A model generated the notes under the pieces. That model did not search any database. It saw only the letters and a list, made by a program, of their open reading frames with translations, and was not told the origin of the DNA. Both the position numbers and the translations under genes were made by a program. From a phage, in assembly GCA_012225525.1 (NCBI GenBank), contig GCA_012225525.1_3923.1: a stretch of 64,000 nt of DNA; one strand, 5' to 3'. This document shows positions 9,686 to 44,046 of the stretch, one piece after another. Every line of letters begins with the position of its first letter. Position 1 is the first letter of the stretch.

Positions 9686-11830
9686 ATGAACAAAGTGCAG
9701 ATTATTAAAAAGAATGGCTCACTCGAAGAACCTGATATCAAAAAAGTTTTAGCAGCAGTCACAAAGTCAGCTAATAGGGTTGGTTATAAAGAGCTTCCAC
9801 CAGATGTTACTCAAGCTCTTGAGTCAGCATTTATGAGGATTCTGGTAAAGTCCGCTAAGCAGAATAATTTGCTTATCTCGGTAAATGATATTCACAGTAT
9901 TGTTGAAGGTGCTTTGGCAGAAGTTAATCACGAGATTTATGAGTCTTACTCAACATATAGAAATTACCGTAAAGAAGTTGCTCAAAATTGGGATGAACTC
10001 TACCAGAAGACCAAAGATACACTCTTCTTAGGTGACAGAGAGAATGCTAACTTTGACAGCAGTTTAATTTCTACAAAAGGTTCAATTATTCGTGGTTATC
10101 TGACTAAAGAAATCTTTAAACAGTACCATTTAACACCAGAGGAACTTGAAGCCATTGAAAAAGGGTTTATCTATATCCATGATTTAAGAGACCTAATCTT
10201 TGGTGGTATCAACTGTTGCCTGTTTGACATTGGTAAAGTCCTGAAAGGTGGCTTTGAAATGTCTGGCATCGAATATTGTGAACCAAAGTCTGTGCTGTCG
10301 GCCTTACAGGTTATTGGTGACGTAGTTCTTTCAGCAACTGCACAGCAATTTGGTGGCTTTACTTTAGCAGAGATTGATAAGGTACTTGTACCGTATGCTA
10401 AGAAGTCTCTACGCTATCATGCTGAGAAAGCAGCATCTTATGGTATTCCTAAAGAACATTACCACAATTATGTCATGGAGCAGCTACAGATTGAACTAAC
10501 TCAAGGTTTCCAGTCACTTGAAATGAAACTAAATACCGTACCTTGTAGCCGTGGGGATTTTGCATTTACAACTTTGACATTCGGGTTACTTGACTCAGAT
10601 ATGTCTAATGAAGATAACCGACTGCAATATATGATTGCAAGTACTCTCCTAGATGTTCGTATGAATGGACAAGGTAAGAGCAAGAAACCTGTTGTATTCC
10701 CTAAACTGGTTTATATTTATGACCAGAAGAGACATAATGAGAATATCTGTCAAGGCCACCTGTACAGTAAAGCTATAGAGTGTTGCTCTAAAGCGATGTA
10801 TCCAGATTTCTTAAGTGTATCTGGTCATGGTGCTGTAGCAGAAGCTTTTGAGCGTTCTGGCAAGGTAATCTCGCCGATGGGTTGTAGAGCCTTCTTATCT
10901 CCATATCTTAACGAGGATGGGGAAGAGTTCTACGTTGGTCGTGCTAACATTGGTGCTGTATCTTTGAACTTACCAATGATTTACCAGTATTCTAAAGAGA
11001 ATGGTTTAGATTTCTGGAAAGAGCTTGATAAGTACCTAGAGATGATTCGCAGCTTCCACAAGAAACGCTACGAAATGATTGCTAATATGCCAGCAAGTTC
11101 TAACCCTCTTGCGTTCACACAAGGTGGTCTGTACAAAGGAACTAAGAAACCTACTGACAAGGTTGGTTGGGATATTGTGAAGTCCTTCACAGCTTCTTTT
11201 GGTGTTACTGCGCTTGATGAGTTGTCTGTTCTTGCTGAAGGTAAACGACTTCATGAAGTTGGAAGCTATAGTTTTGCATATGATGTTCTGGCATACATTA
11301 ACATGAAAACCGAAGAGTTTAAAAATGAAGATGACTTCTTATATGCCGTCTATGGTACTCCAGCAGAATCACTATGTGGGACTCAGCTAAAACAGTTCAG
11401 AGATATGTTTGGGGTTATCAAAGGTGTTTCCGATAAGGAATACTTTACAAATAGTTTCCATATGAATGTTGCAGCAGACATCTCACCATTTGAGAAGCAG
11501 GACTTAGAAGAGCCATTCTTCCATATCTGTAGAGGCGGTAGAATCCAGTATGTAAGAGTAGCTAACCCAGAAAACTTAACAGCACTTAAAAGTTGTATTA
11601 CAAGAGGTATGTTGAAAGGTTTCTATCAGGGACTTAACTTTGACTTAGCAATCTGTGAACATTGTGGTAACAGGCCAAAGGCTGATGTTGAAGAATGTGA
11701 AGTTTGTCACTCACATGATATCTCTGTGATTAACAGGGTGTGTGGGTATCTTGGATGGACTAAGATTAAAGGTGAATCCCGAATGAACGATGCAAAAATC
11801 GCTGAGATTCGTGACAGGGTTTCTATGTAA
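9686..11830 (+). CDS. nrdD: anaerobic ribonucleoside-triphosphate reductase (class III RNR)
   Basis: 714 aa; C-terminal Cys cluster and NRVCGYLG glycyl-radical motif. Confidence 0.9.
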   Translation: MNKVQIIKKNGSLEEPDIKKVLAAVTKSANRVGYKELPPDVTQALESAFMRILVKSAKQNNLLISVNDIHSIVEGALAEVNHEIYESYSTYRNYRKEVAQNWDELYQKTKDTLFLGDRENANFDSSLISTKGSIIRGYLTKEIFKQYHLTPEELEAIEKGFIYIHDLRDLIFGGINCCLFDIGKVLKGGFEMSGIEYCEPKSVLSALQVIGDVVLSATAQQFGGFTLAEIDKVLVPYAKKSLRYHAEKAASYGIPKEHYHNYVMEQLQIELTQGFQSLEMKLNTVPCSRGDFAFTTLTFGLLDSDMSNEDNRLQYMIASTLLDVRMNGQGKSKKPVVFPKLVYIYDQKRHNENICQGHLYSKAIECCSKAMYPDFLSVSGHGAVAEAFERSGKVISPMGCRAFLSPYLNEDGEEFYVGRANIGAVSLNLPMIYQYSKENGLDFWKELDKYLEMIRSFHKKRYEMIANMPASSNPLAFTQGGLYKGTKKPTDKVGWDIVKSFTASFGVTALDELSVLAEGKRLHEVGSYSFAYDVLAYINMKTEEFKNEDDFLYAVYGTPAESLCGTQLKQFRDMFGVIKGVSDKEYFTNSFHMNVAADISPFEKQDLEEPFFHICRGGRIQYVRVANPENLTALKSCITRGMLKGFYQGLNFDLAICEHCGNRPKADVEECEVCHSHDISVINRVCGYLGWTKIKGESRMNDAKIAEIRDRVSM

Positions 11831-14922: not shown

Positions 14923-15804
14923 ATGAAAACATCTATCCGTGTTACAGTTCATTCACCAACTAAAGGGACTCATGAAGAAGAGTTTAACATCGTCCAATTC
15001 CCTTCTGGTGAGATTGGTGGACACTTTTCGCCAGAGTTTGTTGATTTTACTGCTTATGCAGCATCATCCATCAACAATGTGATTATGATTGTAAAAGGTT
15101 ATGACAAGGACACATTGTTTGCTGTGGCACTTGCTAAAGAAGCAATTGATGATTTAATTCCTCATGATTATGCTTTAAAGACTGTCATCTTTTACTACTT
15201 ACCAAATGCACGATATGACCGTCACATGTTTAAAGGTGACGCAGCAGCTTTAAAGGTTTTTGCTAAACAGATTAATGCAATGGGATTTGGCGCAGTCTGT
15301 GCAGTTGACCCTCACAGCTATGTACCAGATAACCTGTTTAACTGCTTCCAGAGTATTCCTCAAAAGGAGATTGCAGTCCACTATGCAAATGACCCACTGA
15401 TTGATTACTTAGTAGCCCCAGATGCAGGTGCTGCTAAGAAGATTGCAGAGACTGCTAAAGAGGTGGATAAACCATATATCACAATGTCTAAAGTACGCAA
15501 CCTTAAGACTGGTGAAATTACTGGTATGCGAATCCTTGATGATGTTGATTTGACAGATAAAACCGTCATGATTCTGGATGATATCTGTGATGGTGGTCGA
15601 ACCTTCATAGAAGCAGCTAAACATCTTCGTGAAGCAGGTGCAAAACGTGTGGAACTCTATGTAACACACGGTATCTTCTCTAAAGATGTTGAAAACCTTC
15701 TTGACAATGGCATTGACCACATCTACACTACAAACTCTTTAGGGGAAGCTAAAGACCGTGGCTTAACACATTATGGTCAAGTTACTGTAGCAAACCTTGA
15801 TTGA
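14923..15804 (+). CDS. ribose-phosphate pyrophosphokinase-like enzyme (Prs family)
   Basis: PRPP-binding-loop-like ILDDICDGGRTF and VAPDAGAAKK; ATG at 14923 (track ORF starts at TTG 14908). Confidence 0.8.
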   Translation: MKTSIRVTVHSPTKGTHEEEFNIVQFPSGEIGGHFSPEFVDFTAYAASSINNVIMIVKGYDKDTLFAVALAKEAIDDLIPHDYALKTVIFYYLPNARYDRHMFKGDAAALKVFAKQINAMGFGAVCAVDPHSYVPDNLFNCFQSIPQKEIAVHYANDPLIDYLVAPDAGAAKKIAETAKEVDKPYITMSKVRNLKTGEITGMRILDDVDLTDKTVMILDDICDGGRTFIEAAKHLREAGAKRVELYVTHGIFSKDVENLLDNGIDHIYTTNSLGEAKDRGLTHYGQVTVANLD

Positions 15805-15849: not shown

Positions 15850-17631
15850 ATGACTAAATCACTTTATGCAGTACCAGCAGGTTTAAACGCAGATGCTTAC
15901 AAATCTGGTCATGTTTACCAGTACCCTAGTGCAACAGAGTACTTGATGTTCAACCTGACACCACGTAGTGACAAATGGTTTAACAGCCCCTTAGCAATTG
16001 ATGGTGTAGTAGCTTTTGGTATTCAACGTTTCGTTAAAGATTACTTGATAGACCACTGGAACGCCACTTTCTTTGAACGTGATAAAAAAGAAGCCATTGA
16101 TGAAATCTTAGAAGTCATGAATGGTGTTCTGGGTAAAGATGCTATCGGTCGAGAGCATTGGGAAGCACTTCACGACTTAGGTTATCTACCAGTTGAAGTA
16201 TACGCTGTAGAAGAAGGTACAGTTGTTCCTATGCGTGTACCAATGATTGTCTTCCAGAACACTGTTTCAGGTTTCCATTGGGTAGCGGGGTATCTGGAAG
16301 ATGCTTTCTCTGCTGAGATTTGGAAGGCTTGTACCATTGCAACTATTGCATTGCATTATAAACGCATCTGTAAGAAGTGGGCTGACCTTACTTGCGACAA
16401 TGACTTACATTTGCCTTATCAGTGCCATGACTTTGCTATGCGTGGTATGTCCGGCTTTACTGATGACGCATTTAACGCTGTAGGCCACTTAACCAGCTTT
16501 AAAGGAACTGATAGCTTCCCTGCTGTGTATACGGCTAAACGAATCTATGGACAGTCTTACCCAATCTCTGATATTGGTAGCTCTGTACCAGCCACTGAGC
16601 ACTCTGTAATGTGTGCAAACATTGCTTGGGAAGGTGGTAATGATTTGGTTGAAGAAGAAAGACGCTTTAAAGGTGAGTTACAAACCTTCCGTCGTTTCTT
16701 AACAGAAACTTACCCAACTGGTATTGCAAGTGTTGTTTCAGACACTTATAACTTCTGGAGAACTGTGTCAGAAATCTTACCAGCACTTCGTAAAGAAATT
16801 ATGGAACGTGATGGCAAACTGGTAATTCGTCCTGACTCTGGAGACCCTGTACATATTGTCACAGGTTATAAAGCAATCCACTTAGAATGTGCTAAGAAGG
16901 CTTATTACGAGCACCTAATCAAGCTGGAAGCCAGTGACACAATGTTGAATGCTGTTCTGAACATGAAGCTTGAAAACATCAACTATGGTATTGCTGGATG
17001 GCTACTGTCAGAAGGCTACGAAATGGTTGTTGACAGAGAAGACTTTGAAGTTGCTGATACAGTGATGTTGAAAAACGCCTATATGGTTGGTTCTGCAAAC
17101 GTTGTAACACGTCCTGTAGCAGAGATTGATGGGGCCATTAAGACCTTGTATAACATCTTTGGAGGAACTATCAACTCTAAAGGGTTTAAGGTACTGGATG
17201 AGCACATTGGCCTTATCTATGGTGACTCTATCACGTTGGAACGTGCAAACGAAATCCTGAAGCGTTTGTATGAAATGGGTTTTGCAAGCTCTAACGTAGT
17301 GTTTGGTGTAGGTTCTTACACTTACCAGTACATGACTCGTGACACCTTTGCATTTGCTGTCAAAGCAACTCTTGCAAGCATTGGTGGTAAAGAGATTATG
17401 CTTGCAAAAGACCCTAAAACAGATAGCGGTATTAAGAAGTCTGCTTTTGGTGGTGTAGCCCCTATGTGGGATGGTGAGAATCTGAAAGCTGTAGATGGCT
17501 ATGGATTCCAGAGTTTTGCAGATGCACTTGAGCATCCAGCTTGTGCTTTACGTTTAGTCTTTAGCGACTCTGAGCAGTTCGGCTACACAACTCTTGGCGA
17601 TATTCGAAATAATATTGACAAGCAGCTTTAA
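15850..17631 (+). CDS. nicotinamide phosphoribosyltransferase-like enzyme (NAMPT family)
   Basis: 593 aa; N-terminal DAYKSGHVYQYP resembles NAMPT DSYK region; adjacent to Prs-like gene. Confidence 0.8.
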   Translation: MTKSLYAVPAGLNADAYKSGHVYQYPSATEYLMFNLTPRSDKWFNSPLAIDGVVAFGIQRFVKDYLIDHWNATFFERDKKEAIDEILEVMNGVLGKDAIGREHWEALHDLGYLPVEVYAVEEGTVVPMRVPMIVFQNTVSGFHWVAGYLEDAFSAEIWKACTIATIALHYKRICKKWADLTCDNDLHLPYQCHDFAMRGMSGFTDDAFNAVGHLTSFKGTDSFPAVYTAKRIYGQSYPISDIGSSVPATEHSVMCANIAWEGGNDLVEEERRFKGELQTFRRFLTETYPTGIASVVSDTYNFWRTVSEILPALRKEIMERDGKLVIRPDSGDPVHIVTGYKAIHLECAKKAYYEHLIKLEASDTMLNAVLNMKLENINYGIAGWLLSEGYEMVVDREDFEVADTVMLKNAYMVGSANVVTRPVAEIDGAIKTLYNIFGGTINSKGFKVLDEHIGLIYGDSITLERANEILKRLYEMGFASSNVVFGVGSYTYQYMTRDTFAFAVKATLASIGGKEIMLAKDPKTDSGIKKSAFGGVAPMWDGENLKAVDGYGFQSFADALEHPACALRLVFSDSEQFGYTTLGDIRNNIDKQL

Positions 17632-21862: not shown

Positions 21863-22411
21863 ATGAAGAAATTGATTCTAGGTTTGTGCTTAATGTTTAC
21901 AGCACACTTATCTTATGCAGTTGACTGCCCAGAGCTATCAATTAGCCAAAAAGTGAACATGTTAAAAGCTTACCAGTATGGTGAGAATAACATGGGTAAA
22001 GGTTGGGGTATCACTCTAGCAGCTATAGCCTTACAAGAGTCAGAGTTAGGTCTGAAGGTAGAAAATAAAAAGACCCATGACTATGGTATCTTCCAGAATC
22101 ACTTGAAGACTGTTGTAAAGCGTAACAAAATTAGTCCTAATGTTGCTAAAAAGAAACTCTTAAAAGATTTTGACTATGCCGCAAAAGAAACACATAAAGA
22201 GCTTGAGTTTTGGACGAAGGTACATGGTCACCCAAAGTCAAAGAAGACTTTACAAAAAGTTTTAGCATCATATAATGCTGGGTATTCGTACAGAATCCCT
22301 AAAGCTAAGAAATACTCTCAAGATGTCTATAACAATATGAAAGTTATCGCTCAATGTGAATTTGCAACAAACATTTCTAAGGTAAATCATGAAAAAATTA
22401 AGAAAGTCTGA
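21863..22411 (+). CDS. secreted lysozyme-like / lytic transglycosylase-like protein
   Basis: Signal-peptide-like N-terminus MKKLILGLCLMFTAHLSYA; QESELG...YGIFQNH resembles SLT catalytic region. Confidence 0.4.
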   Translation: MKKLILGLCLMFTAHLSYAVDCPELSISQKVNMLKAYQYGENNMGKGWGITLAAIALQESELGLKVENKKTHDYGIFQNHLKTVVKRNKISPNVAKKKLLKDFDYAAKETHKELEFWTKVHGHPKSKKTLQKVLASYNAGYSYRIPKAKKYSQDVYNNMKVIAQCEFATNISKVNHEKIKKV

Positions 22412-23084
22412 TGAAGTCCTGTGCCACGCTTATGACTTGCATCCTCATGAGTTAGGTCTTGATTCCTGTGTATGGACTCCAGAACAGTGCAGAGATTTTG
22501 AAGACACTGCAAGAGAGGTTGTATGTTCACTTGAAGAGTTCCACACATCAGAACCCATTGTGAACGTTGTGGACAAAGAGACTGGACAAACTATAGGTGT
22601 AAGGCGTGATAGTTTAGTGATAGTCAATAAAGACCTTGTAGAAAAAGGTAACCTCATCTTAGCAGATATTGATGGTGTTCTTACAAATTTTAATCACGAA
22701 GATTGCTCAACGGAATTGACTGATGGGTCATTCTCACAGTACACTAATCTTCTTGATTCTGTAAGAGCAAAACCAACATATGTTTTCAACATTATTGATG
22801 CAATTGCAAATCATGCAGCAGTTGGACTCTTGACAGCAAGAGGTGAATCTCAGAGAATACCTACTGAGATGTTTTTAAGGCACAATATAGAGCATGATTA
22901 CTTGCTTTTTATGCGTGGTTTTGGAACTAACTCTATAAGTGCAGAAAGTTTGAAAGTGAGGATGATTCAGTCTTGCATTCTTCCTTACTTTAATATAGTA
23001 TGCTTTATAGAAGATACAGAGAAGAATGTTCAGAAGGTAAACAGAATCCTTCCACACATTAAAACCATGTTAGTTAAACATTGA
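22389..23084 (+). CDS. HAD-superfamily hydrolase-like protein
   Basis: ILADIDGVLTNF matches HAD motif I (DxDG[TV]L). Confidence 0.4.
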   Translation: MKKLRKSDEVLCHAYDLHPHELGLDSCVWTPEQCRDFEDTAREVVCSLEEFHTSEPIVNVVDKETGQTIGVRRDSLVIVNKDLVEKGNLILADIDGVLTNFNHEDCSTELTDGSFSQYTNLLDSVRAKPTYVFNIIDAIANHAAVGLLTARGESQRIPTEMFLRHNIEHDYLLFMRGFGTNSISAESLKVRMIQSCILPYFNIVCFIEDTEKNVQKVNRILPHIKTMLVKH

Positions 23085-23960: not shown

Positions 23961-24123
23961 GAGTGATAAGTACACTCAAGAAGAATCACGGTATATCATC
24001 AAAGGCAACACAGGCAGTGATGTAGCAGCAGCACTTGAGTTCTACCGTGACGGCTTTTACCAGTGTACAATTAAAGCTAATAACCTTATTGACATGATTT
24101 TATTAGGGAATAAGCAGCAATGA
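23854..24123 (+). CDS. lipoprotein, possible o-spanin, overlapping 23613..23960 in another frame
   Basis: Signal peptide with lipobox-like ITMSGC; starts inside the upstream gene. Confidence 0.3.
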   Translation: MKRLSQSFIMFVLLITMSGCSTNKVNSTFKNSQVSESDKYTQEESRYIIKGNTGSDVAAALEFYRDGFYQCTIKANNLIDMILLGNKQQ

Positions 24124-24389
24124 CAGAGAATCAAGACACTTTCTATGTAGAAGGTTACTTACTGTTACCACGACCAAAAGAAACTTATATGCGAATCGAT
24201 TTCTTACCAACCATTATGGATAATGTGATGTGTCATATCTTTATGCAAGGTGTCACAGCACAGCTTAAGCATGTTGGTAAAGATTGCAAAATAAAGGTTG
24301 ACACTCATCCAGAAATCAAAGAGAATCACTACACATGGTTCTTACCAGATTCTAAAGAAATCTTAGCAGTTCTTAAAACGAGGAAGTAA
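24120..24389 (+). CDS. hypothetical protein
   Basis: Track ORF. Confidence 0.35.
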   Translation: MTENQDTFYVEGYLLLPRPKETYMRIDFLPTIMDNVMCHIFMQGVTAQLKHVGKDCKIKVDTHPEIKENHYTWFLPDSKEILAVLKTRK

Positions 24390-24391
24390 CT

Positions 24392-24718
24392 ATGCAGATT
24401 AATGGAAGAGACTTTGTAGCCGTTTACTACGAGAAAGATAAAGAAGTTGGCGTAGCACAAGTGTCTTATAGCAATGGTAAGTGGCTATATGGAACAATCG
24501 CAGTAGTTGGAACAAGAAGTGATACAAAAACTTTTAAAGATTGTGTTGACCTTCTTGAAGAATCCATTCAGAATCATTGGTGTCTGATATGGATGACTGA
24601 CAATGAAGTGATAGAACGCTTCAAAAAGATTGATATCAACATTGATAGTATTGAGCATGTTGATTTATATGAGCTAACTGAGAAGGTAAACTATGAGAGT
24701 AATTCTAGCCAGAGATAA
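24392..24718 (+). CDS. hypothetical protein
   Basis: Track ORF. Confidence 0.35.
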   Translation: MQINGRDFVAVYYEKDKEVGVAQVSYSNGKWLYGTIAVVGTRSDTKTFKDCVDLLEESIQNHWCLIWMTDNEVIERFKKIDINIDSIEHVDLYELTEKVNYESNSSQR

Positions 24719-24920
24719 AAAGACACGGAAACTCATCCGGTCAGCAGTATTCATTGGAAGAAATGAAGTCATCCCGTTTACAGCAAACGATGTGATAGCC
24801 TACAGGAAAAACTTAGTATTTAGTGATTGCTTGCGTGGCTTCATCTCCCAACCGTTGGAAGACTTTAAAAGCCGTTGTGGTAAAGGTATCATCATTCAAG
24901 AGGCAATTATCAATGGCTGA
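24693..24920 (+). CDS. hypothetical protein
   Basis: Track ORF overlapping neighbours. Confidence 0.25.
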   Translation: MRVILARDKKTRKLIRSAVFIGRNEVIPFTANDVIAYRKNLVFSDCLRGFISQPLEDFKSRCGKGIIIQEAIING

Positions 24921-25113
24921 CTTCTGCAAAGACTGTTCTATAGAAATGTTTGGACGTGATACAGGTGACTTAAAAGGTCTTATCACTGAGGATGACTTTA
25001 AAGCTGGCTACGCAATGCCAGTAATCTGTGAAGGCTGTGGGTGCATCTGGGTAGACCACGAAGGACAGCGTGTAAAACCTTCAGAAGATAAAGAGTCTTG
25101 GGAGAGATGTTAA
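24913..25113 (+). CDS. small zinc-ribbon-like protein
   Basis: ATG 24913 (MADFCKDC...CEGCGC) within track ORF 24823..25113. Confidence 0.3.
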   Translation: MADFCKDCSIEMFGRDTGDLKGLITEDDFKAGYAMPVICEGCGCIWVDHEGQRVKPSEDKESWERC

Positions 25114-25899
25114 ATGGGTATTGTAAAAATAATCAATGGTGATATCTTTGCCGCATTTGATAAAGGTAAGTTTGACATCATCGGTCACGGTTGCAACTGT
25201 ATGAATTTAATGGGTGCAGGTATCGCTGACAAGATTTCTAAACTTTACCCAAAAGCATATGAGACCGATACAGAAGTTTATCTATATGCAGGTGGTATAG
25301 GACACAAACCCTGTGAAAATTTACTGGGTAATTTCTCTGTAGCACGTTTAAAACAAGGTCGTATAGCTAACCTTTACACTCAGCTTAAGACTGGTAAAGA
25401 TGCCCGATACAGTGCTTTAGAGTCATCTTTGAAACAGCTTAACAGATACTGTGAAGTTAATCAGTTGAAGAAAGTTGGTTTACCTATGATTGGTGCAGGT
25501 ATTGGTGGGCTGGACCCTCAAGCTGTCATAGTTATCATCAATCAGGTGATGAAGAGTGTAGATGTTTATCTGTATGTCTATGAAGGAGAGATGTACCACA
25601 AGTTACGCTCAGGTTGGAAGAACTACTGTGAACCAGAATACTTTGCAGGTGTAGCAGTGTTCACAGATAACGCAGTTACCCTCTTCAGACGAAGAAAAGG
25701 TAAGATACATCAAAGTAACCCTCCGGTTGAAAAGATGTCTCTGAGTAACGCTCTAGTTACCCACCTGTCGAAGAGCAATCACAGGATTGCAGTAACATTT
25801 GGCAGTGATGCAGATACTTATATCTATGCAAGAACTGATGAGGATATCGAGACAGTTTTCTCTTCACCAGAAGTTACCTTCTTAGACGCAAAGAACTAA
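25114..25899 (+). CDS. macro-domain-like protein (ADP-ribose binding/processing)
   Basis: INGDIF...FDIIGHGCNCMNLMGAGIADKI and GLPMIGAGIGGLDP resemble macro domain N-terminal and Gly-rich motifs. Confidence 0.5.
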   Translation: MGIVKIINGDIFAAFDKGKFDIIGHGCNCMNLMGAGIADKISKLYPKAYETDTEVYLYAGGIGHKPCENLLGNFSVARLKQGRIANLYTQLKTGKDARYSALESSLKQLNRYCEVNQLKKVGLPMIGAGIGGLDPQAVIVIINQVMKSVDVYLYVYEGEMYHKLRSGWKNYCEPEYFAGVAVFTDNAVTLFRRRKGKIHQSNPPVEKMSLSNALVTHLSKSNHRIAVTFGSDADTYIYARTDEDIETVFSSPEVTFLDAKN

Positions 25900-25967
25900 G
25901 AAACTCTGTAGAATATTCACAATAGACTAAGCCTTTCTTATCTGGTAAATTTTTCAGGTAAGGAGGG

Positions 25968-26153
25968 CTTTTTCATTTCAGGATTGTGCAGGTAGAGTTC
26001 TGTAGAGAAATCTGTAGAGAGAATTTTGAACTCCAAAGAGAAAATTCATTTTCAAACTGTGCAGGTAATCTCCAAAGAGCTTTTTCATTTTCAAAACGTG
26101 CAGACCCCGCTCAGGTCGGGCAAGAAAAATCATTTTAGAATTGTGCAGGTAGG
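25968..26153 (+). repeat. four imperfect direct repeats of about 26 bp (TTTCATTTTCAAA-TGTGCAGGTA)
   Basis: Copies at about 25968, 26040, 26078, 26125; also duplicated TCTGTAGAGA and CTCCAAAGAG. Confidence 0.7.
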
Positions 26154-26154
26154 T

Positions 26155-26205
26155 TTTTATAGAGAGCCAGACCAACCCCTCTCCCCCTCTTACTCCCCCT
26201 CTCCC
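26155..26205 (+). repeat. polypyrimidine C-rich tract
   Basis: CCAGACCAACCCCTCTCCCCCTCTTACTCCCCCTCTCCCC. Confidence 0.6.
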
Positions 26206-26327
26206 CAAAAGTCAAGAGAAAAATTTGTAGTGGATTGAAAAATAATTCTTGATTTGTGTTCTGTTTTGTGGTAGTCGCGTGCGCCCGTTTCATTACAGTT
26301 TTGCTAAAAATATTTTTAAAAATTTTC

Positions 26328-26356
26328 TTGACTCTTTGAACGGGGTTATCTAATAT
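26328..26356 (+). promoter_or_regulatory. sigma70-like promoter
   Basis: TTGACT-17 bp-TAATAT upstream of first small gene. Confidence 0.55.
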
Positions 26357-26408
26357 TTGCATCAGACGGGGCGACAAGCTCAACAACCTTAAACTAGGAG
26401 ATTCAAAA

Positions 26409-26789
26409 ATGGCATATCGTGCACCTAAATTCATCAACAAAGACAACTTTCGCAACGCACTGGAGAAGTCACTTGATGAAAATTTTAAAGGTAACATTAT
26501 CGTTGTTCACGCATTCAATTTTAAGTATGATGTAAACGGGAATAGAATCAACCATTACACGGCAACCATGTCAGATGGTACACTTTCAAGTGAAAAAGCC
26601 GTACTAAATGCACTGGCAGGACGTGGAAAGGTATTAGTAAGATGTGATAAGAGACGTTATCAGGGCGGCGCATATGGTTATGATGATGCTGTTTACCATC
26701 TTGAAAATATGGGCTATCAAGTAGAAAAAGCTGGAGCATCACAAATCATCGGCAGCGATGGTTATGTAACAATCTTCAAAATTAACTGA
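26409..26789 (+). CDS. small hypothetical protein (array gene 1)
   Basis: Preceded by TTAAACTAGGAGATTCAAAAATG leader. Confidence 0.5.
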   Translation: MAYRAPKFINKDNFRNALEKSLDENFKGNIIVVHAFNFKYDVNGNRINHYTATMSDGTLSSEKAVLNALAGRGKVLVRCDKRRYQGGAYGYDDAVYHLENMGYQVEKAGASQIIGSDGYVTIFKIN

Positions 26790-26877
26790 TAAAGTACTTT
26801 ACAAGGGGCTTATAGTTCGATAAAGTAAGCCCCAGATAAAGAGCTTTACCACTAAATCCTAAATTGGAGATTCAAAA
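26786..26877 (+). repeat. cassette type B copy 1
   Basis: CTGATAAAGTACTTTACAAGGGGCTTATAGTTCGATAAAGTAAGCCCCAGATAAAGAGCTTTACCACTAAATCC...GGAGATTCAAAAATG. Confidence 0.75.
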
Positions 26878-27168
26878 ATGGCTACTATCAAAAACGTTGT
26901 AATTCCTGTAAAAACTCGTGATGACGCTCGCATCATGGCGAAAAAGTTAGGCGGGAAAGTGGTTGACAACGGAAAACAATCTGCTGTAAGATGGGGTGTG
27001 AAGGCTGATAAACAGTTGAAGTTAAAAAATTCACCAATAAATCTTTTTACATGTGTAAACACTATCGGAAAGACAAATGTATACACGAAAAAGGCATATA
27101 TTAGACGCGTAGCCTTAACATCTCCAATTCGTACAATGAGAGGTTATGCAAAGCTGAAAATTAACTGA
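26878..27168 (+). CDS. small hypothetical protein (array gene 2)
   Basis: Follows cassette B. Confidence 0.5.
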   Translation: MATIKNVVIPVKTRDDARIMAKKLGGKVVDNGKQSAVRWGVKADKQLKLKNSPINLFTCVNTIGKTNVYTKKAYIRRVALTSPIRTMRGYAKLKIN

Positions 27169-42630: not shown

Positions 42631-44046
42631 ATGAGCGAATTATTTAAACATGCGCACCTTCATGCAGGTCGAACTGAAAATGGTGCTGTAAACCATACTT
42701 CATCAATGTCTACTCTTGTAGACTTTTACAAAGCTGCTGGTTCAAGCCGTAGCAATGTAGAAATCTTACCAGACTTGTTCTACAAAGCTTTGCGTGAGGA
42801 TGTTGATGTTGCAGTTCGTATTTTACTGCATATGCGAGATGTACGAGAAGGCATGGGTGAGCGTAAAGCCTTCAGAACTGTTTTGCTTCAAGCGATTGAA
42901 GATGAAGTTTTAGAGCCTACGCAGGTTCTTCGCATTATGGATAAGATTGCAGAACTTGGTCGTTTTGATGACTTCAAAATCTTTGTAGGTACTCGTTTCG
43001 AGACAGATGCCTTCAAGCATTTAGAAGCAGCATTACTAGACCCTGCAACAGCAGGTTTGGCGGCTAAGTGGTTACCACGAGTCAAACCACGTCATAAGCA
43101 GTTTGTAAAACGTTTCTGCAAGTTTGCCAACTTGAGTGAGAAAGAGTACCGCACACTGTTGTCTGCACTATCTGATACAGTTGAGCAAAAAATCTCTGCT
43201 AATGAGTTTGGTAAGATTGACTACAGTAAGATTCCTTCACTTGCTGCTGCACGTTACCAAAAACTGTTTAACCGTAAAGATGGAGAGCGTTACAAAGCTT
43301 ACATCGAGTCCTTATCAAAAGGTGAGACTAAGATTAACGCTGGTGCTGTTTACCCATACGATGTGATTAAATCTTTCAAGTATGGTAATGCAGATGTTGC
43401 TAATGAGCAGTGGAAAGCACTACCAAACTGGATGGCAGAAGGTGAAAACATCTTGTGTATGTCTGATGTATCAAGTTCAATGTCTTGGGTGAATTTTGGC
43501 TCCATTACTGCTCTGGATATTGGTGTATCACTTGCCTTGTATGTAGCAGAACGCAATACAGGTTGCTTTAAGAATGAGTTGATGGTTTATTCGACAAACC
43601 CTCACTTCATCGAACTGAGTGGTGATTTACGAAACCGTCATCGTCAGGTGATGCGACACGTTGAATATGGCTCAACTAACTTACAAGCAGCTTTTGACCG
43701 CATTCTTGAAACAGGTAAAAGAAACAACTTGACTCAGAAAGATATGCCAAGTAAGCTTATCATCTTCTCCGATATGGAGTTCAATCAGGTTGATGGAGCT
43801 AACGGTCGTACAAACTTTGAAGCAATTCAGAGTAAGTACAAAAAAGCTGGATATGAGATGCCACAACTGGTATTCTGGTACTTAGCAAACCGTAATGGTA
43901 CTTGCGAAGTATCTGTTAAGGATAACGGTGTAGCAATGGTATCAGGGTTCTCTCCAGCCACTTTAAAAGCTCTGCTTGGTGGTGAGAAGTTTGACCCAAT
44001 CAGTGTAATGCTCAAAGCAGTAATGATTGACCGTTATATCTGGTAA
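42631..44046 (+). CDS. von Willebrand factor A (vWA) domain protein with MIDAS motif
   Basis: DVSSSMS (DxSxS) MIDAS motif about residue 280; 471 aa; sits immediately upstream of the tRNA array. Confidence 0.5.
   Translation: MSELFKHAHLHAGRTENGAVNHTSSMSTLVDFYKAAGSSRSNVEILPDLFYKALREDVDVAVRILLHMRDVREGMGERKAFRTVLLQAIEDEVLEPTQVLRIMDKIAELGRFDDFKIFVGTRFETDAFKHLEAALLDPATAGLAAKWLPRVKPRHKQFVKRFCKFANLSEKEYRTLLSALSDTVEQKISANEFGKIDYSKIPSLAAARYQKLFNRKDGERYKAYIESLSKGETKINAGAVYPYDVIKSFKYGNADVANEQWKALPNWMAEGENILCMSDVSSSMSWVNFGSITALDIGVSLALYVAERNTGCFKNELMVYSTNPHFIELSGDLRNRHRQVMRHVEYGSTNLQAAFDRILETGKRNNLTQKDMPSKLIIFSDMEFNQVDGANGRTNFEAIQSKYKKAGYEMPQLVFWYLANRNGTCEVSVKDNGVAMVSGFSPATLKALLGGEKFDPISVMLKAVMIDRYIW

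What the first reader, a model, noticed from the sequence alone, without database searches (positions are those of the whole stretch)
25114..25899. Macro-domain-like protein with a HAD-like hydrolase nearby, downstream of the NAD-related enzymes
The 25114-25899 product has macro-domain-like motifs (GDIF...GHGCNCMNLMGAGIADKI; GLPMIGAGIGGLDP). Macro domains bind or hydrolyse ADP-ribose derivatives. Together with the Prs/NAMPT pair and a HAD motif-I protein (22389-23084, ILADIDGVL) this suggests the phage invests in ADP-ribose / NAD metabolism, possibly to reverse ADP-ribosylation of DNA or protein or to remove signalling nucleotides.
Basis: partly seen in the sequence, partly recalled or inferred. 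Interest (0 to 1): 0.55.

Follow-up and report, generated by a model that had tools for sequence, protein, structure and literature searches.

The report
Phage macrodomain ADP-ribose hydrolase, anti-defence type
This Felix O1-like phage gene encodes a genuine ADP-ribose-processing (macro) enzyme of the family that phages T4 and Gary use to undo bacterial ADP-ribose/NAD+-based immunity, here fused to a small domain of unknown fold and encoded in a phage that also carries the NAD+-rebuilding pathway NARP1.

Summary
ORF 25114-25899 (261 aa) carries the quoted motifs. It passes Pfam Macro, folds confidently as a macrodomain, and belongs to PHROG 335.

The window is a Felixounavirus. The protein is 98% identical to bas63_0095 of phage Bas63. 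The upstream "Prs/NAMPT" pair is the experimentally proven NARP1 pathway (Adps/Namat) of that phage.

Two PHROG-335 relatives have been characterised:
- T4 Tk.4/AdfM counters DarTG2.
- Vibrio phage Gary Adpp is an ADPR-1''-phosphate phosphatase that lets NARP1 beat the aRES defence.

The Felix O1-type macro domain keeps the His/Asn pair essential in Adpp. It has Gln where TARG1/DarG have the catalytic Lys, as in the DarT-reversing enzyme SCO6735. By sequence and motifs it is nearer to T4 AdfM than to Gary Adpp.

Residues 158-261 form a conserved, purifying-selected orphan domain found only in this Ounavirinae fusion. The HAD protein is a PNKP-type phosphatase with no demonstrated link.

Verdict: a new architectural variant of a known phage anti-defence macrodomain. 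The substrate (DNA-ADPr versus ADPR-1''P) is unresolved and directly testable in Bas63.

The parts
25114..25899 (+). Two-domain macro protein gene (261 aa); ortholog of bas63_0095 'putative phosphatase'
   Evidence: ORF and translation; 98% identical to bas63_0095; PHROG 335 E 2e-113; dN/dS 0.03-0.06 against Sl26 and Bas63
25114..25584 (+). Macrodomain (residues 1-157), Tk.4/Poa1p-like subtype
   Evidence: Pfam Macro covers residues 25-141 above the gathering score. Foldseek top hits are TARG1, DarG and Poa1p. It is 36% identical to T4 Tk.4/AdfM and 30% to Gary Adpp.
25186..25197 (+). H25-G-C-N28 (HxCNC motif); equivalents of Adpp H24 and N27, whose mutation abolishes anti-aRES activity
   Evidence: Invariant in the 30-sequence family alignment (the Kolesnikvirus homologue, not in that alignment, has Gln at H25). 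Adpp mutants are listed in Table S4 of the aRES preprint. The motif is shared with yeast Poa1p 'HSCNC'.
25381..25383 (+). Q90 (NLYTQ), at the position of the catalytic Lys of TARG1 (K84) and DarG (K80)
   Evidence: Two independent alignments; invariant Gln in the family. SCO6735 has an essential Gln85 at this position (review PMC9967889).
25483..25509 (+). P124-x-IGAGIGG132, the diphosphate-binding glycine loop; G131 aligns with TARG1 D125
   Evidence: Alignments
25585..25896 (+). C-terminal orphan domain (residues 158-261): one N-terminal helix, six beta-strands and one C-terminal helix (pLDDT about 51 at the extreme N-terminus of the isolated-domain model)
25929..25970 (+). Terminator-like hairpin directly after the gene
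   Evidence: Consensus scan: 17-bp stem plus T-run. Pattern match only.
14923..15804 (+). Adps (ADPR pyrophosphokinase, Prs-like), first enzyme of NARP1
   Evidence: Pfam Pribosyltran and Pribosyl_synth; 78% identical to bas63_0079. The Bas63 79-80 knockout and its biochemistry are described in bioRxiv 10.1101/2024.02.11.579819.
15850..17631 (+). Namat (nicotinamide ADPR-transferase, NAMPT-like), second enzyme of NARP1
   Evidence: Pfam NAPRTase and NAMPT_N; 98% identical to bas63_0080
22389..23084 (+). HAD-type phosphatase resembling the 3'-phosphatase half of PNKP. Listed because the finding names it; no link to the macro protein was shown.
   Evidence: PHROG 3970 E 6e-135, with weaker hits to only the phosphatase portion of the PNKP PHROGs. 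A homologue carries HAD_PNKP (weak). No PDB sequence hit.

Best explanation
The gene encodes a catalytically competent macrodomain hydrolase of the phage Tk.4/Poa1p-like family (PHROG 335). These enzymes cut the group attached to the 1'' carbon of ADP-ribose and release free ADP-ribose.

I think its most likely job is counter-defence of the T4 Tk.4/AdfM kind. That means removing the ADP-ribose that DarT2-type toxins put on thymidines of replicating phage DNA, using a Gln-based mechanism like that of SCO6735 rather than the Lys-based mechanism of DarG.

The free ADP-ribose it releases is the substrate of the phage's own NARP1 enzymes (Adps, Namat). The same active site may also dephosphorylate ADPR-1''-phosphate.

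The lineage-specific C-terminal domain probably adds target or partner binding. This would be analogous to the second domain of DarG2, but with an unrelated fold.

Shown here: fold, family membership, conserved catalytic residues, presence of NARP1, conservation and purifying selection of both domains.
Inferred: the substrate, the counter-defence role, and the role of the C-terminal domain.
For: - Macro fold and family.
- T4 Tk.4/AdfM, Gary Adpp and this protein are all in PHROG 335.
- T4 Tk.4 is conditionally essential on DarTG2, and a clean knockout sensitises T4 (preprint).
- This macro domain is 36% identical to Tk.4 and 30% to Gary Adpp. It shares the HGCNC / NLYTQ / IGAGIGG motif set with Tk.4-type proteins. 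Most NARP1-adjacent proteins have HQxNC / NxYGQY plus an insert / IGCGLAGG instead.
- NJ bootstrap: grouped with T4 and excluding Gary in 0.69 of replicates; grouped with Gary and excluding T4 in 0.07.
- The best curated-model hits are DarG in NCBIfam and PADLOC. The top structural matches, TARG1 and DarG, are both thymidine-ADPr-DNA hydrolases.
- Gln at the catalytic-Lys position is exactly the arrangement of SCO6735, which reverses DarT modification and needs that Gln.
- The conserved Asn (N28) corresponds to the catalytic Asn of DarG (N22) and PhiKZ AdfM (N23).
- No phage ART, Nudix, NADAR or RNA-ligase/Tpt1 partner is annotated in Bas63 or detected in the window.
- Both domains are under purifying selection and are conserved with synteny across Ounavirinae.
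Against: - No experiment exists on any Felixounavirus macro protein.
- T4 AdfM's enzymatic activity has only been inferred from genetics.
- The phylogenetic preference for the Tk.4 side is only moderate (0.69, and 0.48 for excluding all NARP1-adjacent proteins).
- One NARP1-adjacent protein (Acinetobacter phiAbaA1) has the same motif set.
- The phage carries NARP1, which gives an Adpp-type role an obvious rationale.
- The DarG catalytic Lys is absent.
- The DarG profiles do not cover the C-terminal domain.
- The C-terminal domain is not consistently basic, so nothing points to DNA binding.
Confidence: 0.42

Rival explanations
1. Trans-encoded Adpp. The protein is the ADPR-1''-phosphate phosphatase of a dispersed NARP1-AP pathway. 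RES-type defence enzymes (aRES) split NAD+ into nicotinamide and ADPR-1''-P, which Adps cannot use. The macro enzyme removes the phosphate, and Adps and Namat (encoded 7.5 kb upstream) then rebuild NAD+.
For: - Gary Adpp is a PHROG-335 member. It lies between Adps and Namat and converts ADPR-1P to ADPR in vitro, and the three-gene operon defeats aRES.
- Adpp H24 and N27, needed for that activity, are H25 and N28 here, invariant in the family alignment.
- The HxCNC motif is shared with yeast Poa1p, an ADPR-1''-P phosphatase.
- This phage has NARP1.
- The macro gene and NARP1 are co-conserved on the same strand and in the same order in Felixounavirus, Kolesnikvirus and a 35%-identity metagenomic relative.
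- aRES occurs in E. coli, Klebsiella and Enterobacter.
- The published survey looked only within two genes of NARP1 and lists no enterobacterial phage, so it would have missed this gene.
Against: - The gene is not in the operon: about 14 genes intervene, including rIIA and rIIB.
- The sequence subtype differs from most NARP1-adjacent proteins and is nearer to T4 Tk.4, from a phage without NARP1.
- H25 and N28 are also conserved in Tk.4, so they do not discriminate.
- The Kolesnikvirus homologue has Gln instead of His25, although H24A inactivates Adpp.
- PHROG-335-type macro proteins occur in about 2,800 phage records, so co-occurrence with NARP1 could be incidental.
Confidence: 0.3
2. Bifunctional two-module antitoxin-like protein. 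The macro domain hydrolyses both substrates, and the orphan C-terminal domain binds and blocks a host toxin (DarT2 or aRES), as the second domain of DarG2 does.
For: - DarG2 combines a macrodomain with a DarT2-binding domain.
- This protein has a conserved extra domain under purifying selection, restricted to this fusion.
- The full-length model is confident (pTM 0.88). I could not inspect the coordinates, so I take the high pTM only as suggesting a fixed inter-domain arrangement.
Against: - There is no sequence similarity of the C-terminal domain to DarG models.
- No fold similarity to anything in the PDB.
Confidence: 0.12
3. Housekeeping clean-up enzyme of RNA repair. In the Poa1p role it removes ADPR-1''-P made by a Tpt1/KptA-type 2'-phosphotransferase after tRNA repair, working with the nearby HAD/PNKP-like phosphatase. 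Alternatively it is a non-catalytic ADP-ribose binder or sponge.
For: - Historic 'A1pp phosphatase' annotation of Tk.4.
- A PNKP-type HAD phosphatase lies 2 kb upstream.
- The phage carries a large tRNA cluster.
- In Thalassavirus the macro gene neighbourhood includes RNA ligases.
Against: - No RNA ligase or Tpt1 is annotated in Bas63 or found in the window ORF scan.
- The HAD protein lacks a kinase domain, and nothing links it to the macro gene beyond loose proximity.
- The catalytic residues are invariant, which argues against a mere binder.
- Both characterised phage relatives are anti-defence enzymes.
Confidence: 0.08

Closest known systems
T4 Tk.4 = AdfM (anti-DarT factor macrodomain; HIDEN-SEQ preprint 10.1101/2025.11.20.689424)
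   Same: Same PHROG 335; 36% identity over the macro domain; same HGCNC / NLYTQ / IGAGIG motifs; Gln at the TARG1/DarG Lys position.
   Different: Tk.4 is a single-domain protein of 155 aa, whereas this one has an extra 104-aa domain. T4 has no NARP1. The genomic context differs: beside vs/tk in T4, and after the spanin genes here.
Adpp of Vibrio phage Gary (KNV71_gp137), NARP1-AP pathway (preprint 10.64898/2026.01.28.702374)
   Same: Same PHROG 335; macro fold, Poa1p-like; the essential H24/N27 are conserved as H25/N28; the phage also encodes Adps and Namat.
   Different: Only 30% identity; HQCNC / NVYGQY plus a 7-residue insert / IGCGLAGG motifs. Adpp is encoded between Adps and Namat, whereas this gene lies 7.5 kb away. 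Adpp has no C-terminal domain.
DarG2 antitoxin macrodomain and chimallivirus AdfM (PhiKZ gp104)
   Same: ALC1/TARG1-like macro fold; best NCBIfam and PADLOC hits; conserved catalytic Asn; two-domain layout of macro plus a second domain.
   Different: The catalytic Lys (K80 in DarG, K78 in PhiKZ AdfM) is replaced by Gln90. The score is far below the DarG model cutoff (46.6 versus 250 bits). The C-terminal domain is unrelated. There is no adjacent darT.
SCO6735 of Streptomyces coelicolor (PDB 5E3B)
   Same: TARG1-like macrodomain with an essential Gln at the catalytic-Lys position that hydrolyses thymidine-linked ADP-ribose on DNA. It appears among the PDB sequence hits of this protein and of Tk.4.
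   Different: It is a bacterial cellular enzyme with only weak sequence similarity (E 0.78 to this protein). The Q85-Q90 equivalence is inferred through TARG1 K84 and was not aligned directly.
Yeast Poa1p (PDB 6LFQ/6LFR), ADP-ribose-1''-phosphate phosphatase
   Same: Shares the H-x-C-N-C ... G-G-G-I-A N-terminal motif; Foldseek probability 1.0, TM-score on the target 0.75.
   Different: Eukaryotic tRNA-splicing context. Sequence similarity is confined mainly to the N-terminal 40-100 residues.

Membership tests
Macro domain superfamily (Pfam PF01661) | Profile match above the curated gathering score | tested here: met
   31.9 bits versus 22, residues 25-141 covering profile positions 2-117 of 118
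Macro domain superfamily (Pfam PF01661) | Three-layer alpha/beta/alpha macro fold | tested here: met
   AF2 pLDDT 90; Foldseek probability 1.0 with TM-score on the target 0.75-0.84 to TARG1, DarG and Poa1p
Phage Tk.4/Poa1p-like macro family (PHROG 335) | Full-length match to the PHROG profile, together with the characterised members | tested here: met
   E 2e-113. T4 Tk.4 scores 1e-65 and Gary Adpp 1e-49 against the same PHROG.
Phage Tk.4/Poa1p-like macro family (PHROG 335) | Conserved HxCNC, N-x-Y-x-Q and P-x-IG-x-G motifs | tested here: met
   H25, N28, C29, N86, Q90, P124, G127 and G129 are invariant in 30 sequences; motif table
T4-type AdfM (anti-DarTG2) | Protects the phage against DarTG2; removes thymidine-linked ADP-ribose from DNA | not testable with these tools
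   Needs a phage knockout and a biochemical assay. No published test on any Felixounavirus was found.
Adpp / NARP1-AP | Encoded within the NARP1 operon (published criterion: within two genes of Adps/Namat) | tested here: not met
   The gene starts 7.5 kb downstream of Namat. In Bas63 it is gene 0095 versus genes 0079/0080. No enterobacterial phage appears in Table S1.
Adpp / NARP1-AP | Same genome encodes Adps and Namat | tested here: met
   78% and 98% identity to the experimentally studied Bas63 genes
Adpp / NARP1-AP | Catalytic His and Asn (Adpp H24, N27) | tested here: met
   H25 and N28. Not discriminating, because Tk.4 has them too.
Adpp / NARP1-AP | ADPR-1''-phosphate phosphatase activity | not testable with these tools
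   Requires an LC-MS assay with ADPR-1P
DarG antitoxin (NCBIfam NF048014) | Score above the curated cutoff over the full-length model | tested here: not met
   46.6 bits versus 250. Only model positions 4-154 of 338 are matched. PADLOC DarG matches positions 18-147 of 329.
DarG antitoxin (NCBIfam NF048014) | Catalytic lysine (K80 in DarG, K84 in TARG1) | tested here: not met
   Aligned position is the invariant Gln90
DarG antitoxin (NCBIfam NF048014) | Adjacent darT toxin gene | tested here: not met
   The neighbours are small phage ORFs with no ART domain
HAD superfamily / PNKP 3'-phosphatase (neighbouring ORF 22389-23084) | Motif I DxDG[TV] and a profile match to the PNKP phosphatase domain | tested here: met
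   ILADIDGVL is present. PHROG 3970, 415 and 505 match the phosphatase part only. No Pfam hit above threshold.

The most novel reading that the evidence does not exclude
The Ounavirinae protein is a two-module counter-defence factor with two roles. First, it is the missing third enzyme that makes the original NARP1 model phage (Bas63) and about 250 other sequenced Felix O1-like phages naturally NARP1-AP-competent against RES-type NAD+ phosphorylases. In that case the published 15% figure for Adpp-equipped NARP1 phages would be a substantial underestimate. Second, its orphan C-terminal domain is a new toxin- or partner-binding fold, which would make it a DarG2-like 'orphan antitoxin' built from unrelated parts.
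Probability: 0.15. Interest if true: 0.65.

Novelty: new variant of a known kind. Interest (0 to 1): 0.42.

Why it matters
Felix O1-like phages are widely used Salmonella and E. coli phages, and Bas63 is the phage in which NARP1 was discovered.

If bas63_0095 supplies ADPR from ADPR-1''-P or from ADP-ribosylated DNA, three things follow:
- The NARP1 arms-race picture changes. aRES would not beat NARP1 in these phages.
- Adjacency-based surveys of anti-defence operons undercount dispersed pathway members.
- One enzyme family (PHROG 335, found in about 2,800 phage genomes) may cover two different defence systems.

The orphan C-terminal domain is a clean target for finding a new interaction module. 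If the protein turns out to be only another AdfM, the finding is an ordinary new family member.

Tried and rejected
1. DarG membership was rejected. The catalytic Lys is absent, the curated cutoff is not reached, the C-terminal part is not covered, and there is no darT.
2. Assigning a fold or function to the C-terminal domain failed.
   - Pfam found nothing.
   - BFVD returned only the protein's own family.
   - AFDB50 was not available.
   - The exhaustive HMM search returned only two-domain relatives plus PQQ/BamB beta-propeller, retroelement (reverse-transcriptase), PAS-domain and sortilin-type repeat proteins with many short stretches, which I judged to be compositional noise.
3. I considered cREC_REC, because P0026 fuses Macro to cREC_REC and aligned there. 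I rejected it because the predicted C-terminal domain is nearly all-beta, not a Rossmann-like REC fold.
4. A basic, DNA-binding character of the C-terminal domain is not supported; pI ranges from 4.7 to 9.5 across relatives.
5. A phage-encoded ART, Nudix, NADAR, RNA ligase or Tpt1 partner was not found. One of the 26 families matched in the bulk scan was not displayed.
6. A functional link to the HAD protein has no supporting evidence.
7. ICP1 AdfB is not a macrodomain relative.
8. Phylogeny could not cleanly separate an Adpp-type from an AdfM-type assignment (bootstrap 0.48-0.69).
9. The Poa1p structure paper was not in the library.

Full report
**Observation.** The ORF at 25114-25899 (+) is real. 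It encodes 261 aa and starts at an ATG directly after the stop codon of the upstream ORF. A terminator-like hairpin at 25929-25970 follows the gene.

The macro assignment is solid:
- Pfam Macro scores 31.9 bits against a gathering score of 22.
- PHROG 335 ('phosphatase') matches at E 2e-113.
- The AF2 model has pLDDT 90.1 and pTM 0.88.
- Foldseek gives probability 1.0 to TARG1, DarG, Poa1p and viral macrodomains.

**Where the window comes from.** The window is a Felix O1-like phage of the genus Felixounavirus, 94-96% identical at the nucleotide level to many E. coli and Salmonella phage records. Those records mostly call this gene 'phosphatase' or 'hypothetical protein'.

The BASEL phage Bas63 (JohannRWettstein, MZ501086) belongs to this genus. 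Its gene bas63_0095, 'putative phosphatase', is 98% identical to the window protein.

**The upstream 'Prs/NAMPT pair'.** These genes (14923-15804 and 15850-17631) are 78% and 98% identical to bas63_0079 and bas63_0080. That two-gene operon is where NAD+ reconstitution pathway 1 (NARP1) was discovered:
- Adps pyrophosphorylates ADP-ribose to ADPR-PP.
- Namat joins ADPR-PP to nicotinamide to regenerate NAD+.
- Deleting the operon sensitises Bas63 to the NAD+-depleting SIR2-HerA defence (bioRxiv 10.1101/2024.02.11.579819).

So the phage does invest in ADP-ribose/NAD+ metabolism, but not through the PRPP/NMN chemistry that the gene names suggest.

**Characterised relatives of the macro domain.** A tblastn search finds relatives in about 2,845 of 50,697 phage records. 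Two of them have been studied, and both fall in PHROG 335 together with this protein.

*T4 Tk.4.* A transposon screen found it conditionally essential on DarTG2. A clean knockout sensitises T4, and the gene was named adfM. Its enzymatic activity has been inferred, not assayed.

*Adpp of Vibrio phage Gary.* The gene lies between Adps and Namat. The purified protein converts ADPR-1''-phosphate to ADP-ribose. The three-gene NARP1-AP operon overcomes aRES, a RES-domain NAD+ phosphorylase whose product NARP1 alone cannot use. The H24A and N27A mutants are inactive.

That study searched only within two genes of NARP1. Its Table S1 contains no Escherichia, Salmonella, Shigella, Citrobacter or Erwinia phage, so the Felix O1-type gene was not considered. 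No Felixounavirus was among the phages tested.

I found no paper that addresses the Bas63 macro gene.

**Active site.**
- H25 and N28 (motif HGCNC) correspond to Adpp H24 and N27. They are invariant in the 30-sequence family alignment.
- The same H-x-C-N-C motif occurs in yeast Poa1p.
- The Asn corresponds to the catalytic Asn of DarG (N22) and PhiKZ AdfM (N23).
- At the position of the catalytic Lys of TARG1 (K84) and DarG (K80), this family has an invariant Gln (Q90 here, in NLYTQ). TARG1 D125 aligns with G131. Two independent alignments agree on this.

The protein is therefore not DarG-type in mechanism. However, SCO6735, a TARG1-like enzyme that removes DarT's thymidine-linked ADP-ribose, has an essential Gln85 at this same position. 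Equating Q85 with Q90 is my inference through TARG1 K84; I did not align the two directly.

The chimallivirus protein that is also called AdfM (PhiKZ gp104) is a true Lys-containing DarG2-type enzyme. Two different macro subtypes therefore share that name.

**Adpp-like or AdfM-like?**
- Over the macro domain the protein is 36% identical to T4 Tk.4, 34-35% to the Pseudomonas NARP1-adjacent proteins, and 30% to Gary Adpp.
- The two-domain proteins form a robust clade (bootstrap 0.99).
- That clade groups with T4 Tk.4 and excludes Gary Adpp in 0.69 of NJ replicates. The converse grouping occurs in 0.07. Exclusion of all NARP1-adjacent proteins occurs in only 0.48.
- Motifs agree. Felix O1-type and Tk.4-type proteins share HGCNC / NLYTQ / IGAGIGG. 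Most NARP1-adjacent proteins have HQxNC / N-x-Y-G-Q-Y plus an insert / IGCGLAGG. One NARP1-adjacent protein (Acinetobacter phiAbaA1) has the Tk.4-type motifs.

On sequence alone the protein leans toward AdfM. On genomic logic an Adpp role is attractive, for three reasons:
- NARP1 is the only other recognisable ADP-ribose-using module in the phage. No ART, Nudix, NADAR, RNA ligase or Tpt1 is annotated in Bas63 or detected among 60 unassigned window ORFs.
- The order NARP1 ... rIIA, rIIB ... SLT, HAD-PNKP ... macro is conserved in Kolesnikvirus and in a metagenomic relative only 35% identical.
- aRES occurs in enterobacterial hosts.

The two roles are not mutually exclusive, since either reaction releases ADP-ribose, which is the NARP1 substrate.

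**C-terminal domain.** Residues 158-261 form a helix, then six strands, then a helix (pLDDT 81).
- It has no Pfam match.
- In BFVD it matches only its own family, the SUSP2 macro protein.
- A profile search of 1.84 billion representative proteins finds it only fused to this macro domain. The only other hits are noise from repeat and multidomain proteins.
- The DarG profiles do not extend into it.
- It is under purifying selection, with dN/dS 0.05-0.14, compared with 0.02-0.05 for the macro domain.
- It is retained down to 33% overall identity.
- Its net charge is not conserved.

Its function is unknown. By analogy with the DarT2-binding second domain of DarG2, a partner- or target-binding role is the most economical guess.

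**The HAD protein.** ORF 22389-23084 has HAD motif I and matches PHROG 3970 'polynucleotide kinase'. It aligns only to the phosphatase half of T4-type PNKP families and has no P-loop. It has no PDB sequence hit. Nothing ties it to ADP-ribose beyond lying 2 kb upstream.

**Verdict.** The protein is a new architectural variant (macro plus orphan domain, encoded away from NARP1) of a known family of phage anti-defence macrodomains.

| Reading | Confidence |
|---|---|
| Active PHROG-335 ADP-ribose hydrolase (general statement) | about 0.85 |
| AdfM-like reversal of DarT2 DNA modification | about 0.42 |
| Trans-acting Adpp for NARP1 | about 0.30 |
| Two-module antitoxin-like protein | about 0.12 |
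| RNA-repair clean-up enzyme or non-catalytic binder | about 0.08 |

These readings overlap; a dual role for the enzyme is plausible. The question is directly testable in Bas63 with reagents that already exist.

Noticed in passing
L006:13998-14780 (Erwinia phage vEam_PM_27, Kolesnikvirus): The two-domain homologue has GQGCNC instead of GHGCNC. The His that is essential in Gary Adpp (H24A is inactive) is a Gln in this lineage, which may mean a different catalytic requirement or substrate.
   Followed up: partly
P0026 (metagenomic, 339 aa): A PHROG-335-type macro domain is fused to a cREC_REC domain (PF20274, 'cyclic-phosphate processing receiver'). This is a different two-domain architecture and hints at processing of ADPR cyclic phosphate.
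   Followed up: partly
KY652726.1 Klebsiella phage vB_KpnM_BIS47 (H60 and H216): This 147-kb phage carries a Namat homologue (about 52-53.5 kb) and a PHROG-335 macro gene (about 126.7-127.2 kb) roughly 73 kb apart. Pairing of 'NARP1 plus a non-adjacent macro' is therefore not unique to Felix O1-like phages, and adjacency-based surveys would miss it.
   Followed up: no
window 14923-15804 versus 15850-17631: Adps is only 78% identical to Bas63 Adps, with the divergence concentrated in the N-terminal half. The adjacent Namat is 98% identical. This suggests mosaic recombination inside the NARP1 operon.
   Followed up: no
literature: Two non-equivalent phage macrodomain subtypes were independently named AdfM. 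T4 Tk.4 is Poa1p-like with Gln at the catalytic-Lys position. PhiKZ gp104 is DarG2-like with Lys78.
   Followed up: yes
window about 25900-26500: In the megablast of 24000-27000, most related records matched at 2-5 separate places. This suggests a repeated element somewhere in that 3-kb query. My guess, not checked, is the intergenic stretch downstream of the macro gene, perhaps promoter/terminator cassettes.
   Followed up: no
window (unassigned ORFs; probably 42631-44043 for the first item): The bulk Pfam scan found DUF2828 and DUF7788 domains. These probably belong to the 471-aa protein beside the tRNA cluster that is annotated 'RNA-binding protein' in relatives. The scan also found a MazG-like PRA-PH domain and a chagasin-type peptidase inhibitor I42 domain. 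I did not determine which ORFs carry them.
   Followed up: no
window 9686-11830: The anaerobic ribonucleotide reductase large subunit reads as one uninterrupted 714-aa ORF here. In Bas63 and Sl26 it is split or joined around a homing-endonuclease gene, so this phage may lack that insertion.
   Followed up: no
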